A stretch of DNA of 64,000 bases, taken from positions 3,473 through 67,472 of the forward strand of contig CAYHWW010000002.1 in the NCBI GenBank assembly GCA_964360145.1, written 5' to 3'. The position numbers and the translations under genes were made by a program. The notes under the pieces are model-generated. The model saw only the letters and a list, made by a program, of their open reading frames with translations. It searched no databases and had not been told where the DNA came from. This DNA comes from an uncultured Oligoflexia bacterium (lineage in GTDB: Bacteria > Bdellovibrionota > UBA1018 > CAYHWW01). This document shows, piece after piece, positions 6,725 through 23,473 of the stretch; the first letter of the stretch is position 1; every line of letters begins with the position of its first letter.

Positions 6725-8623
6725 ATGTTCCACGTGGAACATCGTTTTGATGTCATTGTCGTCGGTGCTGGACATGGAGGCTGTGAGGCTGCCCTCGCCG
6801 CGGCGCGCATGGGGGTCCAGGTCTGCCTGTTGACCCTTAACAATGACAGGGTGGGTTACATGTCTTGTAATCCTGCCATCGGCGGCTTGGCCAAGGGCCA
6901 GCTAGTCAAAGAGATTGACGCCATTGGTGGTCAAATGGGTGTCAACACCGACAAGAGCGGCATCATGTTTCGACGTCTCAATGCATCGAAGGGATACGCA
7001 GTTCGATCCAGCCGCGCACAGTGCGACAAGTACCTCTATGCTGCCAACATGAAGCAGGTCATCGAAACAACCCCCGGTGTTGCCCTGCTTCAGAGGGAAG
7101 TGGAATCCATCATTTTAAAGAAGGGACGCGTCACTGGGGTGACGACAACCTGGGGTGAGTCCATCCATGCGCCCACTGTGATTCTCACTACGGGCACATT
7201 TTTGGGAGGTCTCATGCACACTGGCTTCCACCAAGAAAAGGGTGGTCGGGCAGGGGATAGCGCCTCCTATGGACTCACCAAATGGCTGTCGGAACAGGGC
7301 CTTCGATTAAAGCGCCTCAAGACGGGAACGCCCCCCCGCCTCGAACGCAGAACAATCCAGTTTCAAGGACTTGAAGAACAGTGGGGCGATGAGCCTCCGC
7401 GTCCATTCTCTTTCCGCCGCGTGCCCAGCCCTTTCCCCTATATTCAACAGATTAATTGTTGGATCACCCATTCCAATGCTCGAACTCACGAGATTATCGC
7501 AGAGAACTTTGAGTGTTCTCCCATGTTTACAGGTGTCATCAAGGGCTGCGGTCCCCGTTACTGCCCCAGCATTGAAGACAAGGTGAAGCGTTTTGCGGAC
7601 AAGGATCGGCATCAGATTTTCCTGGAACCCGAGGGATTGCAAACGCAGGAAATATACGCCAATGGCTTGAGTACGAGCCTTCCTCTGGATGTACAAATCA
7701 AATTCCTTCGCACAATTCCAGGGCTAGAGAGGGTGGAAGTCTCTCGCCCCGGCTACGCGGTTGAATATGACTGCGTGGACCCCACTCAGCTCTTCCATAC
7801 GCTCGAGACCAAGGACCTTCCTGGACTGTACTGCGCAGGCCAAATCAATGGCACTTCCGGCTATGAGGAGGCAGGAGCCCAGGGTTTGATCGCCGGCATC
7901 AATGCTGCCCAGAGGGTTTTGGGTCGTGAGGAGTACGTACCTCTGCGTACAGAGTCTTACATTGGCGTCATGATCGATGATTTGGTTACGAAGGGGGCTG
8001 ACGAGCCCTATCGGATGTTCACCAGTCGGGCTGAAAGTCGCCTTTTTTTGCGGGAAGACAACGCTGATTTGCGGCTAACAGAGCAAGGTCGGCGCCTGGG
8101 TTTGGTGGATGATGCGTTGTTTGTCGCATTTGAAGAAAAGCGCCAGCAGATTGAGGCCGAGTTAGCACATCTCGACACACACTACTTCTACCCCACCACG
8201 GAGACCAATGAAGGTCTTGCGACCGTGGGTTCAGCACCACTGAAAGATCGGGTTAGTGCTAAAATTCTTCTTCGTCGCCCTGAGATGACTGTTTCACGGA
8301 TGCAAGGCCTAGGCTTTGAACCCAAAAATACTTCCCAAGAGAGTCTTGAGCAGGCTGAAATTAGTGTGAAGTACGAGGGATATGTTAAAAAAGAGACTGA
8401 ACAGCGAGAAAGCTTCGTGCGCAACGAACGCATGCGCATTCCCCTGGAGATTGATTACGGCGCCATCGGCGGACTATCCACCGAGGTGCGGGAACGATTA
8501 AGGCATATTAGGCCTGAAACCATTGGACAAGCTTTGCGGATGCCTGGCTTAACTCCAGCGGCTGTTGCAGCCCTACTCATTTATATCAAGTCGACGAAGG
8601 GGGTTTCTTCCCTTGAACACTGA
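6725..8623 (+). CDS. mnmG: tRNA uridine-5-carboxymethylaminomethyl modification enzyme MnmG (GidA)
   Basis: FAD motif [15 protein letters not shown], full-length MnmG homology. ORF track start 6578 runs through the tRNA; true start is ATG 6725. Confidence 0.95.
6726..6741. promoter_or_regulatory. parS: parS-like centromere site TGTTCCACGTGGAACA (perfect 16-bp palindrome)
   Basis: Matches the chromosomal parS consensus tGTTnCACGTGnAACa with symmetric changes; overlaps the mnmG ATG (6725); identical copy at 9292. Confidence 0.65.
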
Positions 8624-9275
8624 GAAACTCCTTCTCCAGCTCGTCTCGGCAGGGGCTGCCCCTGAGCAGGCCCAGAGGCTTTTGAGTTATGGCGCAAGAC
8701 TCCTGGCCTGGAATGAAAAGATGAATCTAACCGGTGCCAAAGACCTGGACGAGCTTACGCAGAAACACCTCTTGGACTCCGTATTGGCGTGGAAAGTGCG
8801 AAACACAGCGATGGCGGGCGCACTTATATTTGATCAGATCGTAGATGTGGGCTCCGGCGGGGGAATACCGGGTATCCCATTGGCTATTCTGCAGGATAAG
8901 CCCGTGGTGCTGGTGGAGCGTCGTCAGAAAAAGGCCCGTGCATTAGAAGAGCTTGCCATCGAATGTGAGCTTGGTCCGAGAGTAGGCGTTAGGGCCGAGA
9001 GCCTTGAAAAACTCTGTTTTTCTACGCGTTCTGAGTTTTGGTTCCGCGGGGTTCTCCCGGCAGATAAATTAATAAGCTATTTCTCTCGGGAGATACCCTC
9101 TCGAGCCCTCTCTCAGGTGGTTCTCATGAAGGGCCCGGCCTGGGGGGAGGAGCTGCGTCGAGCACTAGAGCAGCCGGACATGGATCACCTCTGGTGTCAG
9201 CGATTTGAGCAGGCTGAAGTTTTTGGTTATGAGTTGCCGGACGGGGCTGGAACTCGGAACCTGGTTCTGCTGTAA
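8565..9275 (+). CDS. rsmG: 16S rRNA (guanine527-N7)-methyltransferase RsmG (GidB)
   Basis: RsmG motifs ([17 protein letters not shown] motif [16 protein letters not shown]); ATG 8565 overlaps mnmG by 59 nt, alternative TTG at 8613 gives a shorter overlap. Confidence 0.85.
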
Positions 9276-9291
9276 GTGTGTGTGGAGTGAA

Positions 9292-9307
9292 TGTTCCACG
9301 TGGAACA
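9292..9307. promoter_or_regulatory. parS: parS-like centromere site TGTTCCACGTGGAACA (second copy)
   Basis: Identical 16-bp palindrome in the rsmG-parA intergenic region. Confidence 0.65.
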
Positions 9308-9418
9308 AGTGGGTGGTCATTGAGTAGTCATGCTGGGTTATGACGACTCTTGGTCAGTCACTCATTGCATTTCAAAAAAATGACTTTAAAGTGGATGAAT
9401 AGACAGAGGGTTTCCGCC

Positions 9419-10243
9419 ATGGGAAAAGTCATAGCCGTCATCAATCAAAAGGGCGGGGTGGGTAAGACTACAACCACAGTGAACCTAGCGGCGGCACTTG
9501 CAGTGGCTGACCGAAGGACGCTCATTCTGGACCTGGACCCACAGGGCAATGCGTCATCGGCGCTGGGCGTGGATCGCGCTCAATACTCAACTAAAAACAT
9601 TTATCACGCCCTTATGGGCATGGTGCCATTGGGCGAGGCCATTGCCCCTACGGAGATCGATCGTCTCTGGGTGGCCCCGAGCAATACAGACCTCGCCGGC
9701 GCGGAGATTGAGTTGGTTTCGGCGTTCGCCAGGGAGAATAAGCTTAAGGCCGCCATTGCGACCATCAAGGATCAATACGATTTCATCTTCATTGATTGTC
9801 CGCCTTCACTGGGGCTGCTTACAGTCAATGCCCTCACTGCGGCCGACAGCTTTCTGGTGCCGCTCCAGTGCGAATACTTTGCCCTCGAGGGCCTCTCTCA
9901 GCTCCTGATCACTGTGCGTCTGATCAAGCAAAGCTTGAACCCCACGCTGGAAGACGAAGGTATCGTGCTCACCATGTTTGATAGTCGGAACAACTTAGCG
10001 CACGAAGTGGTGAAGGAGGTGCGCACGCACTTTGGCGCCAAGGTTTTTGACACGGTTATCCCACGTAACGTGAAGCTGAGTGAGTGCTCGAGTTTTGGTA
10101 AGCCGGTGATCCTCTACGACATCGACTCCAAGGGGAGCATTGCCTATCTCAATATGGCTAAAGAGCTCATCAATCGCACCGTGGGAGTTGAGCATGTGCA
10201 GCTCCTTACGGAAGAGCGCTCATCACCCCATTTAGAGGTTTGA
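9419..10243 (+). CDS. parA: chromosome partitioning ATPase ParA (Soj)
   Basis: Deviant Walker A KGGVGKTTT directly after in-frame ATG 9419 (ORF track start 9350); full Soj/ParA homology. Confidence 0.9.
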   Translation: MGKVIAVINQKGGVGKTTTTVNLAAALAVADRRTLILDLDPQGNASSALGVDRAQYSTKNIYHALMGMVPLGEAIAPTEIDRLWVAPSNTDLAGAEIELVSAFARENKLKAAIATIKDQYDFIFIDCPPSLGLLTVNALTAADSFLVPLQCEYFALEGLSQLLITVRLIKQSLNPTLEDEGIVLTMFDSRNNLAHEVVKEVRTHFGAKVFDTVIPRNVKLSECSSFGKPVILYDIDSKGSIAYLNMAKELINRTVGVEHVQLLTEERSSPHLEV

Positions 10244-10246
10244 GTT

Positions 10247-11215
10247 ATGGAAACAACGAACAGCACGACGAATGCAAATACCGCGAAAGAGCGCCCCGCT
10301 CCGCGCCCTGCCCTGGGCAAGGGCCTCGCCTCCCTGTTCCCCGCCCCGCCCGCCGCCACCGCGGTTGCCCATGAAGTCGCTGAAGCGGCGGCAGGTGCAC
10401 TAGCCAATAAAGATCGTCACATGGGTATTATGATGTGCGCCGTCGAGGACATCGTGCCCAACCAGTTTCAGCCACGTCGTGAGTTTGACGAAGCAACCGT
10501 CGAAGAGTTGGCGCAGTCCATTCGGGAAAATGGCCTCATCCAGCCTCTTGTGGTGCGCAAGGGCGCGAAGGGTTTCCAGCTCATTGCCGGCGAGCGCCGC
10601 CTGCGCGCGGCGAAGCTTGCTGGCCTGAGGCAAGTGCCCATCGTCATTCGTCGATCCACGGACCAAGAGGCGCTGGAGCTGGCTCTCATCGAAAATATTC
10701 AGCGTGAAGACCTGAACTGCATGGACACCGCCCACGCCTATCAACAGCTCATGAGTGAGTTCAGCATGACTCAGGAGGCAGTGTCTCAAAAGGTGGGCAA
10801 GGATCGTGCGACAGTGGCCAATCACTTGCGCCTCTTGCGGCTTCCCGAAAAAATCCGGGCATGGCTTAAAGAGGGAACGATATCTTATGGCCATGGGAAA
10901 ACGCTGGCGGGCCTGATGGATCATCCCGCGGATGCGGAGCGCTTTGCTGAAGAGGCTATAGATCTGCGCTGGTCCGTGCGAGAGCTCGAGCACCGCATTC
11001 AGGCGTGGAAAGACGGTCGGGTCGAGTCGCCGGAGACGCCCGTCGCCGAAGGGCTTACACCCGTGGCTCTGCGCCTTCAGAACGTGAGCAAGGAACTTTC
11101 TCAAAAGTATTCGACCAAAGTAGTTGTAAAGGGTCATGATAGGCGCGGCAAGATCGTGTTGGATTACTACTCCGTCGATGATCTCCATCGCTTGATCGAT
11201 ATGCTCGGTCGTTAG
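10247..11215 (+). CDS. parB: chromosome partitioning protein ParB (Spo0J)
   Basis: ParB box (LIQPLVVR, IAGERRLRAAKLAG), HTH region, N-terminal ParA-interaction-like motif LGKGLASL. Confidence 0.9.
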   Translation: METTNSTTNANTAKERPAPRPALGKGLASLFPAPPAATAVAHEVAEAAAGALANKDRHMGIMMCAVEDIVPNQFQPRREFDEATVEELAQSIRENGLIQPLVVRKGAKGFQLIAGERRLRAAKLAGLRQVPIVIRRSTDQEALELALIENIQREDLNCMDTAHAYQQLMSEFSMTQEAVSQKVGKDRATVANHLRLLRLPEKIRAWLKEGTISYGHGKTLAGLMDHPADAERFAEEAIDLRWSVRELEHRIQAWKDGRVESPETPVAEGLTPVALRLQNVSKELSQKYSTKVVVKGHDRRGKIVLDYYSVDDLHRLIDMLGR

Positions 11216-11225
11216 TGAGGCCCCC

Positions 11226-11627
11226 GTGAAGCGCGTTGACCTGTCCACTAAACTAGAAAATCATAGCATTAGCGGCATCATAGAACAGGGTTGCGAGTTT
11301 GAGGGCAAGCTCTGTTTTGAGGGCACCGTGCGCATCGGTGGGCGCTTCCGCGGCAGCATCATAACAAATGATGTGCTTGTCATTGGTGAGGGTGCCCGGG
11401 TTGAGGGTGATGTGGAGGCCGGCACTGTGATCATCAGTGGTGAAATGGTGGGCGACATTGTGGCCAAGCACCGCGTGGAAATTCACCGTCCCGCGATCTT
11501 CCGCGGCAATATCATGACGCCCAGCTTGATGGTTGATGAGGGCGTGATTTTTGAGGGCAGTTCGCGGATGATTTCTCATCGTCCTGCCGGGGAAAAATCC
11601 TATCTGGGCCGGGTAGAATCGAATTGA
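11226..11627 (+). CDS. bactofilin family cytoskeletal protein
   Basis: Beta-helical repeats (GxVxGDVxAxxVxIxG pattern), about 130 aa, GTG start. Confidence 0.7.
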   Translation: MKRVDLSTKLENHSISGIIEQGCEFEGKLCFEGTVRIGGRFRGSIITNDVLVIGEGARVEGDVEAGTVIISGEMVGDIVAKHRVEIHRPAIFRGNIMTPSLMVDEGVIFEGSSRMISHRPAGEKSYLGRVESN

Positions 11628-11665
11628 CAGTAATTTTTTGTGCGTGCTAGTCCTGCCGTACACTT

Positions 11666-12109
11666 ATGCTCACCGAAATTGCAGCGCAGCTGGGCATCGA
11701 CCAGTCATTTTACGTCCAGTTCATTCTGATTGTAGTTTTCTATCTCCTCGTCAGCAGTCTCTACCTGAAACCATTTCAGCGCCTGCTTGCGTTACGTGAA
11801 GAGCGCACCACCGGCGCTTTGAAAGAGGCTCAGGGGTTGAATCAAAGGGCCGAAGAGCTGCAGGGGCAATACAAGGCGCGCCTTCAGGATCTGCACCAGC
11901 GCACGCGCGGCATACTAAAAAAAGTAGAAGATGAGTCCAAGCTTGATGCCAGTAAGATTCTTGATGCGGCAACTCAAGAAGCGCGGGGAAAAGTACAGGT
12001 GACGCTCAAGGAGCTAGAGCTGCAAAAGGCCTCTCTTTTGAGCGCACTCTCCGCGGACGCCCAACAAATTGCCCAAGAGATTGTAATAAAGGTGCTCAAC
12101 CGAGCCTAG
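11666..12109 (+). CDS. atpF2: F0F1 ATP synthase subunit b' (b-type stator)
   Basis: N-terminal TM helix then long charged coiled coil; first of two tandem b-type genes preceding atpH. Confidence 0.75.
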   Translation: MLTEIAAQLGIDQSFYVQFILIVVFYLLVSSLYLKPFQRLLALREERTTGALKEAQGLNQRAEELQGQYKARLQDLHQRTRGILKKVEDESKLDASKILDAATQEARGKVQVTLKELELQKASLLSALSADAQQIAQEIVIKVLNRA

Positions 12110-12121
12110 TGATGGTGATGA

Positions 12122-12586
12122 ATGAGTGAGCTTTTCGTTCCCGCAGTAAATTTTGCGATGCTCGTCGGCCTTTTGGGCTATTTTGCGTGGCCACCATTCA
12201 AGACGTTCGTTGCCCAACGCCAGGAAGACATCAAAAAACTGTCAGAAGACGCTCGCACTCAGAAGGTTGAAGCGGAGAAGCGCTTGCGAGAGTTTGAAGG
12301 CAAGCTGCGCGCATTTGAGGTGGATGCTGAGAGTCTGCTACGCGCCGCCCAGGCGGATGCTGAGGTCCTGCGCACGAAAATCATCGAGGACGCACGCAAA
12401 CAAGGTGAATACATCCGTAAAGACGCAGAGAGCACCGCGACGGCCAACGTCAATGACTTCCGTGATGAAGTGAGGCGTCAGGTTGTGCGGCTGGCCGTGT
12501 CCGAGGCAGAAAAAAGCATTCGTGCCAATCTTTCCAAGGATGTTCAAAGCAAGATCATCCGCGATTACATGGAGAAAGTCGTATGA
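12122..12586 (+). CDS. atpF: F0F1 ATP synthase subunit b
   Basis: TM helix LVGLLGYFAWPPF then coiled coil; position before delta. Confidence 0.8.
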   Translation: MSELFVPAVNFAMLVGLLGYFAWPPFKTFVAQRQEDIKKLSEDARTQKVEAEKRLREFEGKLRAFEVDAESLLRAAQADAEVLRTKIIEDARKQGEYIRKDAESTATANVNDFRDEVRRQVVRLAVSEAEKSIRANLSKDVQSKIIRDYMEKVV

Positions 12587-13131
12587 AGGCGATCGCCGTC
12601 AGTCGCGCCTACGCAACAGCGCTCTACGAACTGGCTCGTGATCGCAATGAGATCGATGAGGTTCACGACCAGTTGATGGTGTTGGCGCGGGCATGGACAG
12701 ACTCCAAGGATCTGCAGAGAGTGTTCGCCTCCGGCCGCTTTACGGACAAAGAAAAGACGGATCTTACTGGCGCACTATCGGAAAAACTGGGCCTCTCTCC
12801 GTTGGTCTCCCGCTTTTTTTCCCTGGCGACTGAAAAGGCCCGTCTTTCTCTTCTTCCTGAAATGGCATCCGAGTTTCAGGGCCGCATCGATGAGGCCTCT
12901 GGCACATTGCGCGGTACCGTCTTCACCGCGGAAGCTCTTCCCGAAGAGCAAGTGAAAGACTTGGAGCGCGCCTTTTCTCAGCGCTTCAAGAAAATCGTTC
13001 ACTTGGAGCCCCGAGTGAATGGCAGCCTTTTGGGCGGTCTTTTGGTCCGCATCGGCGATCTCTCATTTGACGGCAGTCTCAGAACCACTCTCGAGAACTT
13101 GAAGAACAAACTTGAAAGGCAGTACCCATGA
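12583..13131 (+). CDS. atpH: F0F1 ATP synthase subunit delta (OSCP)
   Basis: OSCP-family N-terminus ([14 protein letters not shown]); operon position. Confidence 0.85.
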
Positions 13132-14639
13132 TCAAAGTGCGCCCAGAGGAAATCACGCAACTCATCAAAAAGCAGCTCTCCGACTTCGAAAGTAAAGTCG
13201 AAGTTTCGGAGACGGGCTCCGTTATCTCCGTCGGCGACGGTGTAGCCAAGGTACACGGCCTTACCAACGTCATGGCGGGCGAGCTGGTGGAGTTTACCGG
13301 TGGCGTAACCGGCATGGTGCTGAACCTTGAAGAACAAAGCGTTGGTATTGCCATCCTCGGCGATGACACCCAGATCAAAGAGGGTGGCACCGTCAAGCGC
13401 ACGAACAAGATCGTGCAGGTCCCCGTTGGTGAAGAGCTGTTGGGGCGCGTGGTCAACGTGCTTGGCGAGCCCATCGACGGCAAGGGTGAAACCCGCGCTA
13501 AGAATTATCGCCGCATTGAGATCAAAGCTCCAGGCATCGTCGCTCGTCAGGGCGTGAAAGAACCCCTGCAAACTGGCATCAAGGCCATCGATGCCATGAT
13601 TCCCATTGGGCGTGGTCAGCGGGAGCTCATCATTGGTGATCGTCAAACGGGTAAGACCGCCATTGCCGTGGACACGATCATCAACCAAAAAGGCAAGGGC
13701 GTGTACTGCTTCTATGTGGCCATCGGCCAGAAGCAATCAACCGTGGCCCAAGTGGTGGACAAGCTCCGCAGTAATGGCGCCATGGAATACACGACGGTGA
13801 TCTGTGCTGGCGCTGCCGACAGGGCCTCATTGCAGTTCCTGGCGCCCTATTCCGGTGTCACCATGGCGGAGTACTTCCGCGATTCAGGGCGCCACGCCCT
13901 CATCGTTTATGATGACTTAACCAAGCAAGCGCAAGCATATCGTCAGCTGTCCCTGTTGCTCCGCCGCCCTCCGGGTCGCGAAGCTTATCCCGGCGACGTA
14001 TTTTATCTGCATTCCCGGCTGTTGGAGCGTGCCGCGAAGCTCAGCGACAAGCTGGGGGGCGGCTCATTAACCGCTCTACCCATCATCGAAACTCAGGCGG
14101 GCGACGTGTCCGCATATATCCCCACCAATGTGATTTCCATCACCGACGGACAGATTTTCCTGGAGTCTGATTTGTTCTACTCCGGTGTTCGTCCGGCAAT
14201 CAATGTGGGTGTTTCCGTGTCTCGGGTCGGTGGCGCAGCTCAAACAAAGGCCATGAAGTCCGTCGCCGGCACACTGCGTCTTGAGCTCGCTCAATATCGC
14301 GAGAAGGCCGCATTCGCCCAGTTTGGAAGCGATCTGGACGCTGCCACACAGAAACAACTGAGCCGCGGCGCAAGGCTTGTGGAAATCCTCAAGCAAGGCC
14401 AGTACTCTCCGGTGCCCTTTGAGCGCCAAGTGGTCATCATATTCGCGGGCACCCACGGACATCTCGATAAATTCGAGACTTCCAGTCTCGACAAATATGA
14501 GAAGGATCTCATGCAGTACCTGGAGACGAAGCACCCCACAGTGCTGAAGAGTATCGAGTCTTCCGGCAAGATCGACGACTCAATCAAGACGTCCTTGGTG
14601 CGCGCACTCCAGGAGTTCGAAACGGTATTCAGCGGGTGA
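13128..14639 (+). CDS. atpA: F0F1 ATP synthase subunit alpha
   Basis: P-loop GDRQTGKT, highly conserved alpha sequence. Confidence 0.97.
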
Positions 14640-14645
14640 TTTGAG

Positions 14646-15524
14646 ATGGCCAGTTCAAAAGACTTACGCAAACGCATTTCGACGGTGAAGAACACGCAGC
14701 AGATCACCAAGGCCATGAAAATGGTGTCTGCCGCGAAGCTGCGCCGCGCTCAGGATGCCATCGTCAGCTTGCGCCCCTATGCCCGCGAGATCCAAGCCAT
14801 CGTGAGTTCCATTGCTCGTTCCACGGAGGCGGCTCACCCACTGATGGATGAGGCTCGTGCGGAGTCCGGTGACAAGGTGCTCGTCGTGGTTGTTACTTCT
14901 GATCGCGGCCTCTGTGGCGCCTTCAATGCCAGCGTCATCAAGGGCGCCATGCGTTACATGCGCACCCATGGCCATAAGTACAAGAAGTTTGAGTTGGGCT
15001 TTGTGGGCCGCAAGGGCTACGAATTTTTCAAGACCCGGACGCCCAACGCTGGTCGCTACTACCAGAACTTCTTTAGCGGCCTGCGGTTCGCCAAGTCTCA
15101 GGCCATGGCTGAAGAGCTAATTGCCCAATATACCGCGGGTGATTTTGATCAGGTCTTCTTCGTCTACAATGAGTTCCAATCAGCGATCTCTCAAAAGGTT
15201 GCGGTGGAGCGTTTTCTCCCCGTGCGCATTGAAGGCGCAGGCACGGAAACAGCGGGGGACCAAAACCCCGTGGCCTATGAGCCCAGTCGTGAAGAGATAC
15301 TAGACATGTTGTTGCCCAAGCACTTCGCTACGCAGATCCACAGGATTTTACTGGAGTCCTTGGCCAGCGAGCATGGTGCGCGCATGTCCGCCATGGAGAA
15401 CGCAACGAAGAATGCCGGTGAGATGATGTTTGCGCTCTCTCTGGAGTACAACAAGACCCGCCAGGGTGGCATCACCAAGGAATTGCTGGAAATCGTTTCG
15501 GGCTCCGAAGCCCAAAAGAATTAA
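14646..15524 (+). CDS. atpG: F0F1 ATP synthase subunit gamma
   Basis: Gamma N-terminal motif (IKNTQQITKAMKMVSAAKLRRAQ), conserved C-terminus. Confidence 0.95.
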   Translation: MASSKDLRKRISTVKNTQQITKAMKMVSAAKLRRAQDAIVSLRPYAREIQAIVSSIARSTEAAHPLMDEARAESGDKVLVVVVTSDRGLCGAFNASVIKGAMRYMRTHGHKYKKFELGFVGRKGYEFFKTRTPNAGRYYQNFFSGLRFAKSQAMAEELIAQYTAGDFDQVFFVYNEFQSAISQKVAVERFLPVRIEGAGTETAGDQNPVAYEPSREEILDMLLPKHFATQIHRILLESLASEHGARMSAMENATKNAGEMMFALSLEYNKTRQGGITKELLEIVSGSEAQKN

Positions 15525-15530
15525 TCATGA

Positions 15531-16969
<1,439 letters not shown>

Positions 16970-16970
<1 letters not shown>

Positions 16971-17389
16971 TGATGCTGACACTGGAAGTTGTTACACCGA
17001 CAAAACGCGTAGTATCCCCCGTGAGAGTGGAAACGGTTACTCTCATGGGTGCCCAGGGCGAGCTTACCATCTTGCCTGGTCATGCTCGTCTGGTGAGCAG
17101 CATGGAAACCGGTGTTCTCCGTTACGAAACCGAGGGCCACAAGGAAAAGCAGACGGCTGTGATCACTAGTGGCTTCGTCGAAGTGAAAAACGACAAGGTG
17201 ACTGTACTAGCCGAGACCATGGAAATGGCCCGCGAGATCGATGTCGAGCGTGCGAAAAAAGCCCAGACAAAGGCGGAAGAGCGCTTGAAGGACAAGGAGC
17301 TGGACCCGGATAGCTTCCGCAAGTATCAACTGAAGCTTCAGCGTGCGCTCATCCGTCAGCAGCTTGCCCGCGAACACAGCAGCTCGTAA
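16970..17389 (+). CDS. atpC: F0F1 ATP synthase subunit epsilon
   Basis: Epsilon beta-sandwich N-domain plus helical C-terminus; operon position. Confidence 0.9.
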
Positions 17390-17625: not shown

Positions 17626-20169
17626 ATGAGTAGGCCCCAATTGACTGGGGTTTTGTGCGGTCACGGAGGATCTTTGGCAGTGGTTCGCCCCAGAAAGGTG
17701 CGAAAACAGTCCGCAGTGCGAGCAACGACGTTGCTCTGCGCTGTTGTCGCATCTTACTGTGCTGCCGAGGCGACGCTTCATTGTGCTCAAAACCTCGCAC
17801 GTCAGTGGCTGAAGCCCTCTCTTCCTCTTACTGCATTGAAGGGGCTGCCGCGGGGCAGTGTAGGCTTACGGTCTCCTGAAAGCCCCGCTATGCTCACTGC
17901 GCATTCCATTTCTGTGCGCTCTTACCGAGTGATTCTGCCTCCTGCACCAAGCGAAAGCAGCGTGCCCCTCGTTGGTGCGGAGGTGGACTCTGGCGCGGCC
18001 CAAGGATTTGCTCTTCTCTCGCAGCAGTATGCCGAGGAGACCCAGCGGCTAGCCTACCGCCATCATCTTCTGTCCATGGAATGGCACAGCATTGCCCAGG
18101 CCCATCAAGCGGCCCGGCAGCAGCGTCGCATGGCTCGGAAAGCTCCGACGCAAAAGAGCGAAGAGCCCACTGAGGTGGTTCAAGCCAGTGCGGTTCATAA
18201 GCTGGCCCCATCACTGGAGATGAAAGTAGCATTAGCTGAGAAGCCGCAGCCCAGGGTTAAATCATCGCCGCACCTGAAGCTTGCCATGAACCTTGAGCCA
18301 CTAGCGTCAATGAATACTCAGACTGACCACTCAGTGGATTATCAAGGTCTCTTAAAGAGCCTCGCAATAGGAGAAGCGCCTCAGATCGAAGAGCTACAGC
18401 CGCCACTGGTTGAGGCCGCACCTCCGGCAGCTGAACCGGAGCAACAACAGATCGCAGAAATCCCCGCTGCTCCGGCGGAGTCGGTGACCGCTATTCAAAC
18501 GGTCACCGAAGTGCATGGAACACCCTCTGCATCGAAGGATGCTCTGAATACCCAGCCTGAGCATCCAGTGATGAATACTCAGGAATACGTCGCCCCCCAG
18601 TATGAGGAAGCACGGGTGGATTATGGCAAGGCTGTGGCAGAGAATATCCAAAACTCCGCACCAACTATTATAGAGGCGGGCAATGTTGTTGCTGGTGCCT
18701 CTGCGTCTGAAGAGTCAGCCACCATCCCCATGGTGGTTTCGGCGACACCGACGATTAGCTATCCCATCGTGATGGGCTTAATTGGTCCCCCTGCTCCTGC
18801 CGCTGCGGTCGCAGCGGCAGGAGCAGCAGCACCCCCTCCGGCAGCGCCCACGCCCACTGTAGATGTGGCACAACAAAAGACCACGGAACCGTCCGAAGAA
18901 GATCAAACCATTCTGGGCTTGGATGGCGGCACCCCAAGTCCGCGTAAAACGACGCCCGCCGTGGAAGTTCAACCCCTCCCCGTGGACGGCTTCAGCGCCA
19001 CCATCTCCGAGGCCTTCAGTGGCGGCAGCAGTGCAATCAGTGGCGCCTCAGCGCAAGTGCTCGGCTCACAGCAGGTTGTGCGGAGCGATGGCCGGGGACA
19101 AGCGCACTTCAAGGAAACAGGACTCACCGGCGTCCTTCCCGTCATCATTCGCAAAGAGGGTTACCTCTGGCGCCGTGCGGACTTGCAGCCCAACAGAGAA
19201 ATGTTCGTCGAATTGGTGTCCGAGAACGCCGCCCGCATGGCAGCACTGGCATCCGGCGATGCTCCCCGCGGGGACAGCGCATTCATGTTCATCCAGCTCG
19301 TCGACCCAGAAGGTAAAAACCTGTCTGGCTATACAGCGCGAATCATCAGCGCCGCGTCTCGCGACGCAGGGATATCTCCCCGCTATGTCGATGAGAACGG
19401 GGCGCCGCTCAAAGCGGGCAGCGCGACGAGCTCCCGCGGCCAACTGATTTTCCCCGCAGCGCCCCAGGGGGATTACATCCTTGTGGTAACAGATGCCGCG
19501 GGTCGCGACCGCGCTCCCCACCTGATGCATGTGGGTGCAGGCGAGGGCATCGTTCGAAAAGTGAGTTTGGGTCGCGCAGTGGGGATCCAGGGGCGCATTC
19601 TCAACGGTCAGCTCGCCAATGCCCCCTTCGCGGGCGCCACCGTACTTCTTTTCGGGACTGATGAAAGCGCAGCTACGGCGACCGCGGACAAGAACGGTCG
19701 TTTCAAGTTTTCCGGTCTATATGTAGATTGCGACGATCTGAACTATCTCCAGGTGGAGCGCGAAGGCATATACCGCAATCGGCTGGAGTATTCCTGCGGT
19801 GGCTCCGACTACTACGTGATGCCGAAAACTCGCGTTGACTCCTTGGCGGAGGAGGCGGGGATGGGCCTTAATCCCAACGCAGGCATCATTATTGGGCACG
19901 TCAGCATGGCTTTCAGCACCAAGGTGCAGCTCATCGGTCCCCAAGAGCTGGTGCCCGCCGAGAATCCCCGCGGCTATGACTTCTACTTTGAGAGGGATGG
20001 TATCATCAACCCCGGCCGGGACCGCACCTCACGCAGCGGTAACTTCATCCTCATGGATGCCCCCGGTGAAATGTCGTACATGCAGGTATTCGACAGGGCC
20101 AACAGCACAACCCGTCACATCACCCCGATATTCACCGCGCCGAGCACCGTCAGCGTTATCGTGCGCTGA
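17626..20169 (+). CDS. large hypothetical protein, Pro/Ala/Gln-rich linker region and C-terminal carboxypeptidase-regulatory-like (transthyretin-like) beta-sandwich repeats
   Basis: Long ORF with coding-like codon usage; low-complexity stretch PPAPAAAVAAAGAAAPPPAAPTPT; C-terminal GATVLLFGTDESAATATADKNGRFKFSGLY resembles CarboxypepD_reg repeats; start codon uncertain. Confidence 0.5.
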   Translation: MSRPQLTGVLCGHGGSLAVVRPRKVRKQSAVRATTLLCAVVASYCAAEATLHCAQNLARQWLKPSLPLTALKGLPRGSVGLRSPESPAMLTAHSISVRSYRVILPPAPSESSVPLVGAEVDSGAAQGFALLSQQYAEETQRLAYRHHLLSMEWHSIAQAHQAARQQRRMARKAPTQKSEEPTEVVQASAVHKLAPSLEMKVALAEKPQPRVKSSPHLKLAMNLEPLASMNTQTDHSVDYQGLLKSLAIGEAPQIEELQPPLVEAAPPAAEPEQQQIAEIPAAPAESVTAIQTVTEVHGTPSASKDALNTQPEHPVMNTQEYVAPQYEEARVDYGKAVAENIQNSAPTIIEAGNVVAGASASEESATIPMVVSATPTISYPIVMGLIGPPAPAAAVAAAGAAAPPPAAPTPTVDVAQQKTTEPSEEDQTILGLDGGTPSPRKTTPAVEVQPLPVDGFSATISEAFSGGSSAISGASAQVLGSQQVVRSDGRGQAHFKETGLTGVLPVIIRKEGYLWRRADLQPNREMFVELVSENAARMAALASGDAPRGDSAFMFIQLVDPEGKNLSGYTARIISAASRDAGISPRYVDENGAPLKAGSATSSRGQLIFPAAPQGDYILVVTDAAGRDRAPHLMHVGAGEGIVRKVSLGRAVGIQGRILNGQLANAPFAGATVLLFGTDESAATATADKNGRFKFSGLYVDCDDLNYLQVEREGIYRNRLEYSCGGSDYYVMPKTRVDSLAEEAGMGLNPNAGIIIGHVSMAFSTKVQLIGPQELVPAENPRGYDFYFERDGIINPGRDRTSRSGNFILMDAPGEMSYMQVFDRANSTTRHITPIFTAPSTVSVIVR

Positions 20170-21469
20170 TTTCACGGATAGCGAAGGGGATTACAACCCT
20201 TGTGCCTTTGGGCAGGCGGCGCTTCAAGTCGAAGATGTCTGGATTGAAAGTTTTTACGGCATCTAACGGCGCCTGATGGAAGGCCGCCACCTCAAACACG
20301 CTTTGGGGCGCCGTCAACTTTACGATCTGCACGCGGTAGGAGCTGCTGGATGCGGGCATGTGGTAAAGACGATCCTGGTAAACTTCGGCATGAACAATGG
20401 CGAGGAACTCCGCGAAGTAATTGCGACTGGCGTAACCCAGGGGCGATTGTTTGTTGCGGGCATCAAGCAGTTTCGCGATATTTTTCACGCCATACTGGTG
20501 GCGAATTTTCACCAGGTTGCGAGCGCCGTGGTTGTAGGCGATGACGGAAAGAGCGATATCGCCCAGGATACGCATGTTGCGTTTGAACATGCGCGTGGCG
20601 GCATGGGCGGACTTAATGGGTGAGAGGCGTTCATCGATGCCCGCCCTTTCATCAACGATCATGTATTCTTGGGCGGACTTGACCAAGAATTGCCAAACAC
20701 CCACCGCGGAGGCCTTCGACTCGGCGGTGATCTGAAAAGAGGACTCAAGGAGTGGTAACCGCGAGAGCTGCACGGGGAGGCCAGCCTCCCGGAAGATGTC
20801 TTCCATGGGTTTCATGAAGGGGCGGCTGGCGCGGATACCGCGGTAAATATAGTCGCGTTGGCCCTTTTGAGTCTTGATGTTGGCAAGCGTCCGTCGCCAG
20901 TGCGAAGCTTTGCATCGCCCCCAGAGTTGCAAGGCGCGAGAGCCAGGGGCACCGACCTTGAACTGAGCCTTGGGGTTGCGGGCGAGAATGCCAAGGTCGT
21001 GGCGTAAGGCATCCAGCATCGACTGAAGGCGCCTCTTGGACATGATTTCAATGCCGATGGCGCCCATGCCGCGGGCCATGAATTCCCGGGCGTCCTGCAC
21101 GGCATAGATTTTATCTGGGCTTTCTTTGTCGAAAACCACCGTTTGCATGCTGGAGTAACGGGCATAAATCTTGAGCCAAAACGCAACATGGCCCTCTAAG
21201 CCAGCGGGCACCTTGAACTCAGGCTCCACCCGATTTTCGGGATCGACCAGCACTTCGGCCAGGTCCTTTGTAGAAACATCCAAGTAGAGGGGGTCAGACT
21301 CCGGCGCCTTATATTGGTCAGAAGCCTCGGGAAAGAGAAGATCCATATCCGCCGCCCGCATGGGAGCCCCATCCCCCGGGGGGAGGGTTGACGAGCGGCC
21401 AGGTACGGCGAACAGGAGGCAAATCGCGCAAGTCATTGTAACCAATAGGGGGACGCGGGTTTGCTCCAT
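20156..21469 (-). CDS. lytic transglycosylase domain protein (MltD-like, periplasmic)
   Basis: N-terminal signal peptide; SLT active-site region ESSFQITAESKASAVGVWQFL with catalytic Glu, and AYNHG motif. Confidence 0.75.
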   Translation of the reverse strand: MEQTRVPLLVTMTCAICLLFAVPGRSSTLPPGDGAPMRAADMDLLFPEASDQYKAPESDPLYLDVSTKDLAEVLVDPENRVEPEFKVPAGLEGHVAFWLKIYARYSSMQTVVFDKESPDKIYAVQDAREFMARGMGAIGIEIMSKRRLQSMLDALRHDLGILARNPKAQFKVGAPGSRALQLWGRCKASHWRRTLANIKTQKGQRDYIYRGIRASRPFMKPMEDIFREAGLPVQLSRLPLLESSFQITAESKASAVGVWQFLVKSAQEYMIVDERAGIDERLSPIKSAHAATRMFKRNMRILGDIALSVIAYNHGARNLVKIRHQYGVKNIAKLLDARNKQSPLGYASRNYFAEFLAIVHAEVYQDRLYHMPASSSSYRVQIVKLTAPQSVFEVAAFHQAPLDAVKTFNPDIFDLKRRLPKGTRVVIPFAIREISAR

Positions 21470-22539: not shown

Positions 22540-23473
22540 GGGGAGGGTTGCCACCCTCGTCCTCGCTTGGACTGTCGCGTTGTCATCGTGTGGTCACACG
22601 CCCACAAAGGCCGAGCCGGAAGCGTCACAGCCCGAGCCACGGCCGGTCGTTCAGGTTTATGAAAATCCCGTGGGACCCGAGCCGCCATTGGGGCCCATGC
22701 CGCCGGAGGGATTTTCGCCAGAGAAGGGTTATGTTCTGGTTCTGGGCCCAGGGATGTTCCGCGCCATGGCTTATGTGGGCGTATTGAAAGAACTGAGCTC
22801 CCGCGGTGTCCGGGTTAACGCAATTGTGGGCACGGAAATGGGCGCGGTCGTCGGTGCTCTCTTCGCGCTGAAGGGAGCGGCGAGCATGGAATGGATCATG
22901 ACCAAGCTCAAGAAGGATGCCTTCAGTGATGTGCCGTTCATCACCATGGGAGAAAAAGAAGCCAAGGGAGATTCCGTGAGCGGGTTTCTCAGAAGCAACA
23001 TGCGCGGTGCCCGGCTAGAACAGTTGAAGACCCCGGTCTATGTGACTTTGGCGGATGCGGAGGGAAAGCCACAGCCGCTCGTATCCCAGGGGATCTTGGC
23101 GGAAGTGCTGCGCGACGCTGTGGCCACCACCGGGCTGATGAAGCCCAGGCACAAGCACGCGCTGCGATCCGCCGTGGATGCAGCGCCCTTTCCCATAGCC
23201 GAGGCGAAGGCTCTGGGGCTGGGACGTGTGGTGGCTGTAGATGTGCTGACGCCGCCCGCGCCGCCGGAGGAGGAGGGCGGATTCGAGGAAAAAACATTCA
23301 ACGTCATGAAACGTTCTCGGGAGCTCGCGGAAGGGCCCCTGAAAGACGCCGATACCGTCATACACGTGCCCGTGGAAGGCATCAGCTACCTCTCCATTGA
23401 AAACCGCGCGGAGTTGGCTTATCGAGGCCGCGCTGCAGCCGTAAAATGGGCAGATGAGGAGGGCTTGAGATGA
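22493..23473 (+). CDS. patatin-like phospholipase family lipoprotein
   Basis: Lipobox LSSC after signal; patatin oxyanion/GxSxG region (VLGPGMFRAMAYVGV, GTEMG); start overlaps tlyA 3' end. Confidence 0.7.
   Translation: MGLREIKSFSSAFRSRGRVATLVLAWTVALSSCGHTPTKAEPEASQPEPRPVVQVYENPVGPEPPLGPMPPEGFSPEKGYVLVLGPGMFRAMAYVGVLKELSSRGVRVNAIVGTEMGAVVGALFALKGAASMEWIMTKLKKDAFSDVPFITMGEKEAKGDSVSGFLRSNMRGARLEQLKTPVYVTLADAEGKPQPLVSQGILAEVLRDAVATTGLMKPRHKHALRSAVDAAPFPIAEAKALGLGRVVAVDVLTPPAPPEEEGGFEEKTFNVMKRSRELAEGPLKDADTVIHVPVEGISYLSIENRAELAYRGRAAAVKWADEEGLR

What the first reader, a model, noticed from the sequence alone, without database searches (positions are those of the whole stretch)
11226..11627. Bactofilin gene immediately downstream of parB and directly upstream of the ATP synthase operon
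A single bactofilin (beta-helical cytoskeletal) gene follows parAB with a 10-nt gap. In Myxococcus, bactofilins scaffold the ParAB segregation machinery at the cell poles. Conserved synteny here suggests a bactofilin-anchored chromosome segregation system, but with only one bactofilin paralog and no obvious PadC-like adaptor in the window.
Basis: partly seen in the sequence, partly recalled or inferred. Interest (0 to 1): 0.5.

Follow-up and report, generated by a model that had tools for sequence, protein, structure and literature searches.

The report
BacM-type bactofilin in parAB operon
This is a real bactofilin (self-assembling cytoskeletal scaffold) gene attached to the chromosome-partition genes parAB. 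The arrangement is already known from Myxococcus (BacM) and Bdellovibrio (Bd3904), and the one direct test of such a gene found no role in chromosome segregation.

Summary
ORF 11226-11627 (+) encodes a 133-aa bactofilin: Pfam PF04519 scores 92.5 bits against a 27.9 cut-off, and the predicted fold superposes on solved bactofilins at TM 0.85-0.92. It starts 10 nt after parB and ends 38 nt before atpF'.

The arrangement is neither unusual nor new. In 79 of 80 related species-level genomes (the 80th locus has no upstream flank), mostly Bdellovibrionota, parB lies directly upstream. The junction is usually a 4-nt overlap. The same layout is published for B. bacteriovorus, where bd3906-bd3905-bd3904 are co-transcribed, and for M. 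xanthus parA-parB-bacM.

I recovered BacM orthologues from metagenomes. The window protein is 49% identical to them without gaps, against 30-36% to other characterised bactofilins.

The functional inference is weak. The Myxococcus bactofilins that organise ParABS are BacNOP plus the ParB-like adaptor PadC, encoded at a different locus. Deleting the parAB-linked paralogue BacM leaves ParA and ParB localisation unchanged and instead deforms the cell. The window holds one bactofilin and no PadC-like gene.

The gene is best read as a BacM/Bd3904-type polymerising scaffold co-expressed with ParAB. A ParABS-anchoring role is untested, not excluded. Interest is low to moderate.

The parts
6726..6741 (.). 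parS-like site 1, TGTTCCACGTGGAACA (perfect palindrome, 1 mismatch to the consensus used). It overlaps codons 1-6 of mnmG (ATG at 6725, peptide MFHVEH).
   Evidence: two palindromic sites (4 strand matches) against 0.07 expected from shuffles.: sequence read.
9292..9307 (.). parS-like site 2, the same 16-mer, in the rsmG-parA intergenic region.
9419..10243 (+). parA (Soj-type partition ATPase). ATG 9419 is preceded by GAGGG. In-frame upstream alternative starts lie at 9350, 9380 and 9395.
   Evidence: AAA_31 2.6e-65, CbiA, ParA.: 52-81% identity to the syntenic gene in 73 loci.: start region.
10247..11215 (+). parB (ParB_N + HTH_ParB + ParB_C domains).
   Evidence: HTH_ParB 3e-33, ParB_N 5e-33.: TIGR00180 at 176 bits against a 58 cut-off.
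11217..11220 (+). GAGG Shine-Dalgarno-like element, 5 nt before the GTG start of the bactofilin gene.
   Evidence: sequence read directly.
11226..11627 (+). Bactofilin gene (133 aa). Disordered N-tail residues 1-13, beta-helical core about 15-115, disordered C-tail 116-133.
11547..11552 (+). Codons for I108-F109 in DEGVIFEG. These are the equivalent of BacM I124/F125, the polymerisation interface.
   Evidence: invariant columns.: gapless alignment to BacM orthologues.: BacM I124D/F125R abolishes fibre formation and fails to complement.
11595..11606 (+). Codons for K124-S125-Y126-L127, a C-tail motif (consensus K/R-S-F-L) recurrent in the Bdellovibrionota clade. Role unknown.
   Evidence: S125 nearly invariant.: tails of 80 loci.
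11666..17389 (+). atpF'-atpF-atpH-atpA-atpG-atpD-atpC cluster. This is genomic context, not part of the par unit.
   Evidence: The gap statistics separate it from the par-bactofilin unit.

Best explanation
The ORF is a genuine bactofilin gene and the third cistron of the origin-proximal parA-parB unit. It is the orthologue, by sequence and by position, of M. xanthus BacM and (by inference) B. bacteriovorus Bd3904. SHOWN HERE: family membership, the predicted beta-helical fold with disordered tails, conservation of the hydrophobic cap residues, clade-wide parB linkage with a tight junction, two parS sites at the locus, and no second bactofilin and no extra ParA-like or ParB-like gene in the 64 kb. 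INFERRED FROM ESTABLISHED BACTOFILIN BIOLOGY: the subunits polymerise end to end without nucleotide, through the conserved hydrophobic caps (I108/F109 at the C-terminal cap; probably I19 at the N-terminal cap). The resulting non-polar filaments act as a scaffold for client proteins. Because of the 10-nt junction, which is an overlapping ATGA-type junction in many relatives, the protein is made together with ParB. LEAST CERTAIN STEP: its cellular job is most likely BacM-like. That means a morphogenetic or cell-envelope scaffold whose synthesis is tied to the replicative phase, and not a BacNOP-PadC-type anchor for ParABS.
For: Family and fold. Orthology to BacM: metagenomic ORFs of 149-151 aa carry every BacM peptide deducible from published primers (HTLLGKGS, DRGVIFEGSLKMENLG), with L35, I124, F125 and M131 at the published positions in all three numbered ORFs (S28 in two of three), and parA-parB directly upstream. 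The window protein aligns to them without gaps at 49% identity over 114 aa (E 5e-39), against 36% for TtBac and 30% for BacA. Synteny: ParB is directly upstream on the same strand in 79 of 80 loci, and the 80th has no upstream flank. The link also holds in divergent lineages where the downstream gene is not atp. The parB-to-bactofilin gap has a median of -4 nt and lies between -22 and +18 in 71 of 79 loci, whereas the bactofilin-to-atpF' gap is 50-164 nt in 61 of 62 relatives measured, the exception being 4236 nt. Co-transcription of parA-parB-bactofilin is published for B. bacteriovorus and M. xanthus. Function: bacM deletion has no effect on ParA or ParB localisation, and BacM is needed for normal rod shape. 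Polymerisation-defective I124D/F125R fails to complement, and these residues are invariant here. Strong constraint: median identity to the window protein is 65% for the bactofilin against 51% for ParB in the same loci.
Against: No experiment exists for this clade. B. bacteriovorus reviews still list the bactofilin as an untested candidate for polarity or chromosome anchoring. M. xanthus has three further paralogues that could have taken over an ancestral ParABS-related role, so the BacM phenotype may not transfer to an organism that may have a single bactofilin (reviews mention only 'a bactofilin homolog' in B. bacteriovorus). Near-universal operon linkage with a coupled junction is what physically interacting partners would show. 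The window protein lacks BacM's cleaved N-terminal extension of about 16 aa and its Pro-rich C-tail. It also lacks the canonical MFSKKKK-type membrane-targeting start, so the way it attaches to the membrane or to clients is unknown.
Confidence: 0.55

Rival explanations
1. ParABS anchor. The single bactofilin forms a polar or subpolar scaffold that tethers ParB-parS and/or sequesters ParA, as BacNOP does in Myxococcus, but without PadC or with an unlinked adaptor.
For: The parB-bactofilin linkage is invariant and has a coupled junction in 79 loci and beyond. Co-transcription is published. A complete ParABS system with two parS sites sits at the locus. The conserved tail motifs (DLSVP in the N-tail, K-S-F-L in the C-tail) could be client-binding peptides. 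Bdellovibrio reviews consider the role open.
Against: The orthologous, syntenic BacM is dispensable for ParA and ParB positioning. In vitro, BacP did not bind ParB directly and bactofilin polymers did not bind ParA, so an adaptor (PadC) was required. No PadC-like ParB-domain protein, no second ParA-like gene and no second bactofilin occur in the window. There is no BacP-like long C-terminal region. Conserved origin-proximal gene order is not in itself functional evidence: mnmG-rsmG-parA-parB is equally conserved in these loci, and no functional link among those genes is known to me.
Confidence: 0.25
2. A general polarity or other-client hub. The filament recruits clients unrelated to both peptidoglycan and ParABS (for example pili, motility or division-site factors), and the link to parAB only provides replicative-phase expression.
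For: Bactofilins have diverse clients in different species: SofG and type IV pili for BacP, flagella in B. subtilis. Bdellovibrio reviews propose a polarity role. The N-tail differs from the canonical membrane-targeting sequence, which hints at a different partner.
Against: No specific candidate client is linked in the window. This is pure analogy.
Confidence: 0.15
3. The gene belongs functionally to the ATP synthase operon, as an assembly or accessory factor.
For: Only 38 nt separate it from atpF' here, and no terminator-like hairpin lies in the spacer. atp genes follow it in most Bdellovibrionota loci.
Against: The gap to atpF' is 50-164 nt in relatives, while the gap to parB is about 0. The bactofilin stays with parB where atp is absent (L082/L083; BacM loci) or displaced (L046 and L076). 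The fold and family are cytoskeletal.
Confidence: 0.03
4. It is a generic beta-helix protein or a spurious ORF rather than a bactofilin.
For: None found.
Against: Pfam score is 3.3 times the cut-off over the full domain. The structural match is specific to bactofilins, and other beta-helices score TM below 0.32. There are 1508 homologues at E<=1e-5, and the aligned family shows 73% mean column identity.
Confidence: 0.01

Closest known systems
BacM (MXAN_7475) of Myxococcus xanthus
   Same: It lies immediately downstream of parB and is co-transcribed with parAB. The window protein is 49% identical without gaps across the whole bactofilin domain to BacM orthologues recovered here. The C-cap motif GVIFEGS-K-M is shared, including I124/F125 = I108/F109.
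   Different: BacM has a 27-residue N-terminal segment that is proteolytically removed and a Pro-rich, Lys-ended C-tail. The window protein has a 14-residue N-tail that starts about where BacM residue 18 aligns, and a different C-tail with a K-S-Y-L motif. Downstream of bacM is a lipoprotein gene rather than atp (no atp hit in L087). M. xanthus has three further paralogues.
Bd3904 of Bdellovibrio bacteriovorus HD100
   Same: Same phylum and the same published context: rRNA methyltransferase, parA (bd3906), parB (bd3905), bactofilin (bd3904), with two parS sites upstream. RT-PCR shows co-transcription. Bdellovibrio sp. MAG loci L010, L016 and L018 show the identical layout at 65-69% identity.
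   Different: The Bd3904 sequence itself was not retrieved, so orthology is inferred from congeneric MAGs. No function has been determined for Bd3904 either.
BacNOP-PadC scaffold of M. xanthus
   Same: Same protein family. This is the only system in which bactofilins are shown to position ParB-parS and ParA.
   Different: It comprises three co-polymerising paralogues in their own operon together with padC, a ParB-like adaptor, and BacP has a long C-terminal region. None of these features is present in the window. That locus is not next to parAB.
BacA of Caulobacter crescentus (2N3D) and TtBac of Thermus thermophilus (6RIA/6RIB)
   Same: Same fold (TM 0.85-0.92) and an equivalent conserved Phe at the polymerisation interface (BacA F130, TtBac F105).
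   Different: Only 30-36% identity. BacA and TtBac bind membrane through an N-terminal MFSK-type sequence, which the window clade lacks. BacA's client is the class-A PBP PbpC. Neither gene is described as parAB-linked in the papers read.

Membership tests
Bactofilin (Pfam PF04519 / DUF583) | Match to the family HMM above the curated threshold, across the whole domain | tested here: met
   92.5 bits against 27.9; profile positions 2-97 of 98.
Bactofilin (Pfam PF04519 / DUF583) | Compact beta-helical core of about 100 residues, flanked by short disordered tails | tested here: met
   AF2 model is all-beta for residues 15-115 with pLDDT about 84-96 in 10-residue blocks (residues 21-110); the tails score below 50. 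TM 0.92 to 6RIB_A and 0.85 to 2N3D. This is a prediction, not a solved structure.
Bactofilin (Pfam PF04519 / DUF583) | Conserved hydrophobic residues at the terminal caps that mediate polymerisation (BacA F130, TtBac F105, BacM L35 and I124/F125) | tested here: met
   I108 and F109 are invariant and I19 nearly invariant in 40 homologues. They align with BacM I124/F125 and L35.
Bactofilin (Pfam PF04519 / DUF583) | Nucleotide-independent self-polymerisation into filaments | not testable with these tools
   Requires purified protein and EM or sedimentation.
Bactofilin (Pfam PF04519 / DUF583) | N-terminal membrane-targeting sequence of the MFSKKKK type (typical of most members, not universal) | tested here: not met
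   The window protein starts MKRVDLSTKLENHS. None of the 73 Bdellovibrionota-core loci examined (L001-L074, L066 not listed) has an MF start; their consensus is M-A-K-K-x-D-L-S-V-P. Deeper-branching syntenic members do have one: MFFRKKK, MFIRKKK, MFGEK.
BacM-type (parAB-linked) bactofilin | Gene immediately downstream of parB on the same strand | tested here: met
   10-nt gap in the window. Same layout in 79 of 80 related loci, the 80th lacking upstream flank, and in BacM loci L084, L086 and L087.
BacM-type (parAB-linked) bactofilin | Co-transcription with parAB | not testable with these tools
   Consistent with the data: a 10-nt gap, no terminator-like site between parB and the gene, and no excess of promoter-like sites. 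Shown by RT-PCR only in B. bacteriovorus and M. xanthus.
BacM-type (parAB-linked) bactofilin | Closer in sequence to BacM than to other characterised bactofilins | tested here: met
   49% gapless identity (E 5e-39) to BacM orthologues, against 36% for TtBac and 30% for BacA. BacN/O/P were not available, so the comparison is incomplete.
BacM-type (parAB-linked) bactofilin | N-terminal segment of about 27 residues removed by processing | tested here: not met
   The window N-tail is only 14 residues, and the alignment starts at BacM residue 18. Whether any processing occurs cannot be tested.
BacM-type (parAB-linked) bactofilin | Loss causes a cell-shape defect but no ParAB mislocalisation | not testable with these tools
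   Known only for M. xanthus.
BacNOP-PadC ParABS-organising scaffold | Several co-assembling bactofilin paralogues encoded together | tested here: not met
   A family HMM on all six-frame ORFs of at least 50 aa finds only one bactofilin in 64 kb; the next hit has E 0.046. The rest of the genome was not available.
BacNOP-PadC ParABS-organising scaffold | Adjacent PadC adaptor (ParB-like ParBc domain) that recruits ParA | tested here: not met
   phmmer with ParB and with ParA finds only parB and parA themselves in the window.
BacNOP-PadC ParABS-organising scaffold | Subpolar patches that position ParB-parS and ParA | not testable with these tools
   Needs live-cell imaging.

The most novel reading that the evidence does not exclude
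In Bdellovibrionota, which may have a single bactofilin and no PadC, the parAB-linked bactofilin could retain an ancestral, adaptor-free role in organising the ParB-parS complex or ParA. It might act through the clade-specific tail motifs (N-tail DLSVP, C-tail K-S-F-L) that replaced the canonical membrane-targeting start. On this reading the Myxococcus BacNOP-PadC system is a later duplication that took the job over and left BacM with shape maintenance only. That would make this gene the missing chromosome or polarity anchor of non-binary-dividing predators.
Probability: 0.2. Interest if true: 0.6.

Novelty: new member of a known kind. Interest (0 to 1): 0.27.

Why it matters
The gene as it stands is an ordinary orthologue in an uncultured Bdellovibrionota genome. 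It does add some value. First, it corrects a tempting mis-transfer of function from BacNOP to the BacM position. Second, the survey shows that parA-parB-bactofilin is a near-invariant unit across Bdellovibrionota and into Myxococcota-like lineages, with a coupled or overlapping junction in many genomes. It is also more conserved than ParB itself. Third, the Bdellovibrionota clade has replaced the canonical membrane-targeting N-terminus with its own motif. How the chromosome is anchored and how polarity is set in Bdellovibrio is an acknowledged open question. This gene is a cheap, well-defined candidate to test, but that candidacy is already in the literature.

Tried and rejected
1. NCBIfam gave no match for the bactofilin at E<=0.01, so only Pfam names it.

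2. Several routes to the BacM sequence failed before one worked. Koch et al. 2011 (PMC3091990) is not held. The supplement of PMC4372379 holds only image captions. A full-text search for the peptides HTLLGKG and GVIFEGSLK found nothing. A homology search with the Myxococcota-MAG protein returned no hit named Myxococcus, and none of the 240 fetched proteins contained the primer-derived BacM peptides. An exact wild-type DNA pattern built from the primers found nothing in metagenomes. The codon-degenerate pattern then worked.

3. The promoter and terminator scan of 8400-12400 gave fewer sites than the shuffles (1 against 2.0 promoters; 3 against 4.1 terminators). None separates parB from the bactofilin or the bactofilin from atpF', so it gives no positive evidence for transcript boundaries. 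The TTGACA that overlaps the bactofilin stop codon has no acceptable -10 hexamer (read).

4. I considered the ATP-synthase accessory-factor idea and rejected it on the gap statistics and on loci that lack atp.

5. I considered the nearby class-A PBP as a BacA/PbpC-like client. It lies 12 kb away beyond the atp cluster, and its N-terminus runs almost straight into the membrane helix. I did not pursue it.

Full report
**1. Observation**

The ORF at 11226-11627 (+) exists as described.
- Its GTG is the first possible start after an in-frame TGA at 11193-11195, and a GAGG lies 5 nt upstream.
- The parB stop codon ends at 11215, which gives a 10-nt gap.
- atpF' begins at 11666, a 38-nt gap, and atpF, atpH, atpA, atpG, atpD and atpC follow to 17389.
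- Upstream lie mnmG, rsmG and parA.

The protein matches Pfam PF04519 (Bactofilin) at 92.5 bits against a cut-off of 27.9, over profile positions 2-97 of 98. It also matches both solved bactofilin sequences in the PDB: 6RIA at E 3.6e-11 and 2N3D at E 1.1e-7.

An AlphaFold2 model built on 40 homologues is all-beta for residues 15-115, with pLDDT about 84-96 in 10-residue blocks over residues 21-110 and disordered tails. It superposes on the Thermus bactofilin filament subunit (6RIB_A, TM 0.92, 1.0 A) and on Caulobacter BacA (2N3D, TM 0.85). Every non-bactofilin beta-helix scores TM below 0.32.

**2. How common the arrangement is**

A database search returned 1508 homologues at E<=1e-5. The nearest named ones come from Bdellovibrionota, Bacteriovoracia and 'Deltaproteobacteria' MAGs. 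Forty of them align with 73% mean column identity and a common N-terminus, which supports the GTG start.

A scan of one genome per species returned 80 loci. They span the classes Bacteriovoracia, Bdellovibrionia and Oligoflexia, plus one Myxococcota MAG. Locating the window's neighbours in each locus gave these results:
- ParB lies directly upstream on the same strand in 79 of 80 loci. The remaining locus has no upstream flank.
- The full order mnmG-rsmG-parA-parB-bactofilin-atpF'-atpF-atpH-atpA holds wherever the flank allows.
- The two exceptions concern only the atp side: L046 and L076 carry inserts of about 4 kb.

Two more divergent homologues on long contigs keep parA-parB-bactofilin. One is followed by atp (L081). 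The other is followed by a polyprenyl synthase and a TonB receptor (L082/L083).

Gap statistics separate the two junctions:
- The parB-stop to bactofilin-start gap has a median of -4 nt, an ATGA-type overlap and the most frequent value. It lies between -22 and +18 nt in 71 of 79 loci.
- The bactofilin-stop to atpF' gap is 50-164 nt in 61 of 62 relatives (median about 82). The exception is 4236 nt.

The bactofilin therefore belongs to the par unit and not to the atp unit. It is also better conserved than ParB in the same genomes. Median identity to the window protein is 65% for the bactofilin, 51% for ParB, 74% for ParA, 77% for AtpA and 31% for AtpF'.

**3. The rest of the system**

Two identical palindromic parS-like sites (TGTTCCACGTGGAACA) lie at 6726-6741 and 9292-9307, against 0.07 expected by chance. 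The first overlaps the first six codons of mnmG. The second lies between rsmG and parA. This mirrors the two parS sites upstream of parAB reported for B. bacteriovorus.

I scanned all six-frame ORFs of at least 50 aa with a family HMM, and with ParA and ParB as phmmer queries. The scan found exactly one bactofilin, one ParA-like gene and one ParB-like gene in the 64 kb. There is therefore no second paralogue and no PadC-like gene in the window. The rest of the genome could not be examined.

**4. What the literature already says**

[quoted passage not shown] Deleting bacM has 'no significant effect' on ParA and none on ParB-YFP localisation. [quoted passage not shown]

*PadC.* PadC is a ParB-like (ParBc-domain) adaptor and not a ParA-type protein. 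In vitro neither ParB nor ParA bound the bactofilin polymers directly.

*B. bacteriovorus.* parA3 (bd3906), parB (bd3905) and the bactofilin gene bd3904 are co-transcribed. The authors already suggest that 'something similar may operate' as in Myxococcus (PMC7186360). Later work shows the same map. Reviews still list the bactofilin as an untested candidate for polarity or chromosome anchoring.

**5. Orthology to BacM**

The BacM sequence could not be retrieved directly. Mutagenesis primers printed in PMC4372379 encode the BacM peptides HTL[L35]GKG, DRGV[I124][F125]EGSL and GSLK[131]ENLG.

A codon-degenerate DNA pattern for DRGVIFEGSLK recovered six metagenomic contigs, L084-L089. Their ORFs have these properties:
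- The three with a complete N-terminus are 149-151 aa; published BacM is 150 aa.
- They contain all three peptides.
- In those three, L35, I124, F125 and M131 fall at the published positions, and S28 does in two of them (T28 in L084).
- parA and parB lie directly upstream in L084, L086 and L087.

The window protein aligns to these orthologues without gaps over 114 residues at 49% identity (E 5e-39). Window residues 2-115 match BacM residues 18-131. The comparable figures are 56% to the Myxococcota-MAG protein, 36% to TtBac and 30% to BacA. The window protein is therefore a BacM orthologue by both sequence and position. The caveat is that BacN, BacO and BacP were not available for comparison.

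**6. Mechanism**

Shown here are the fold, the tails and the conservation of the cap residues. I108 and F109 (in DEGVIFEG) are invariant in the family. They correspond to BacM I124/F125. The charge substitutions at those positions abolish fibre formation and fail to rescue the crooked-cell phenotype. The equivalent BacA F130R mutant is also polymerisation-dead. I19 matches BacM L35 by alignment.

It is inferred that the protein forms nucleotide-independent filaments that act as a scaffold, and that it is made together with ParB.

The least certain step is the client.
- *BacM-like morphogenetic or envelope scaffold.* The only tested orthologue points to this role. I give it roughly 0.45.
- *ParABS anchor.* This stays possible at about 0.25. 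Bdellovibrionota may have only this one bactofilin, the operon link is near-universal, and Myxococcus paralogues could have taken over an ancestral role.
- *Another polarity client.* About 0.15.
- *ATP-synthase accessory role.* Disfavoured by the gap data and by loci that lack atp.
- *'Generic beta-helix' reading.* Refuted.

**7. Differences worth noting**

The window clade lacks the canonical N-terminal membrane-targeting sequence, whose global consensus is MFSKKKK (PMC12448750). All 73 Bdellovibrionota-core loci listed start with a variant of M-A-K-K-x-D-L-S-V-P. The deeper-branching syntenic members start MFFRKKK, MFIRKKK or MFGEK.

The window protein also lacks BacM's processed N-terminal extension and its Pro-rich C-tail. 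Instead it carries a recurrent K/R-S-F-L tail motif. How this clade's filaments attach to the membrane or to clients is therefore open.

**8. Verdict**

The gene is a new member of a known kind, the BacM/Bd3904-type parAB-linked bactofilin. It is not excluded, but the closest experiment contradicts it. Interest is low to moderate.

Noticed in passing
window 6725-6742 and 9292-9307: There are two identical palindromic parS-like sites (TGTTCCACGTGGAACA). The first overlaps the start codon and first six codons of mnmG (AAGGAG-N2-ATG TTC CAC GTG GAA CAT = MFHVEH), so ParB loading would occur on the 5' end of a coding sequence. The ORF listing start of mnmG (TTG 6578) is therefore probably too far upstream.
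   Followed up: partly
window 11226-11270; L001-L074 compared with L075-L083: The parB-linked bactofilins fall into two N-tail types. Bdellovibrionota-core genomes have M-A-K-K-x-D-L-S-V-P with no MF start. Deeper-branching syntenic members have MFFRKKK, MFIRKKK or MFGEK, which resemble the published membrane-targeting consensus MFSKKKK. This suggests a clade-specific replacement of the membrane anchor.
   Followed up: partly
window 11595-11606 (K124-S125-Y126-L127): A short K/R-S-F/Y-L motif recurs in the otherwise variable, disordered C-tail across many Bdellovibrionota orthologues (S125 is nearly invariant in alignment A1). It could be a client-binding peptide. It is absent from BacM, whose tail is Pro-rich.
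   Followed up: no
window 11292-11315 (C23 and C30 in GCEFEGKLC): There are two conserved cysteines in the first turns of the beta-helix. C23 is invariant in alignment A1 and present in nearly all parB-linked members listed, but it is Ser in BacM proper. C30 is nearly invariant only in the Bdellovibrionota clade and is Thr elsewhere. Their significance is unknown.
   Followed up: no
window 11666-17389: The atp cluster starts with b' (atpF') and contains b, delta, alpha, gamma, beta and epsilon, but not atpI, atpB (a) or atpE (c). Those genes must be encoded elsewhere. The 38-nt spacer after the bactofilin is shorter than in any of the 62 relatives measured (50 nt or more) and has no terminator-like hairpin.
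   Followed up: partly
window 20156-21469 (-) and 23470-26076 (+): An SLT-domain lytic transglycosylase and a class-A PBP (Transgly + PCB_OB + Transpeptidase domains) lie 9-12 kb downstream of the bactofilin, beyond the atp cluster. In Caulobacter the bactofilin client is a class-A PBP. Here the PBP's N-terminus (MNALFNVLKYFFMVMV...) has almost no cytoplasmic tail.
   Followed up: partly
L002 (JBBRLF010000184.1): This contig is labelled 'candidate division WWE3 bacterium' but carries a typical Bdellovibrionota rsmG-parA-parB-bactofilin-atp locus (72% bactofilin, 78% ParA and 83% AtpA identity to the window). It is probably a mis-binned contig.
   Followed up: no
L046 6379-10644 and L076 725-4370: These are the only two related loci with an insertion of about 3.6-4.3 kb between the bactofilin and the atp genes. 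The content of the inserts was not examined.
   Followed up: no
window 17626-20169 (+): This is a large 847-aa ORF right after atpC. It has a long Ala/Pro/Gln-rich low-complexity N-terminal half, and its only Pfam match is a CarboxypepD_reg domain (E 6e-9). Its function is unclear.
   Followed up: no
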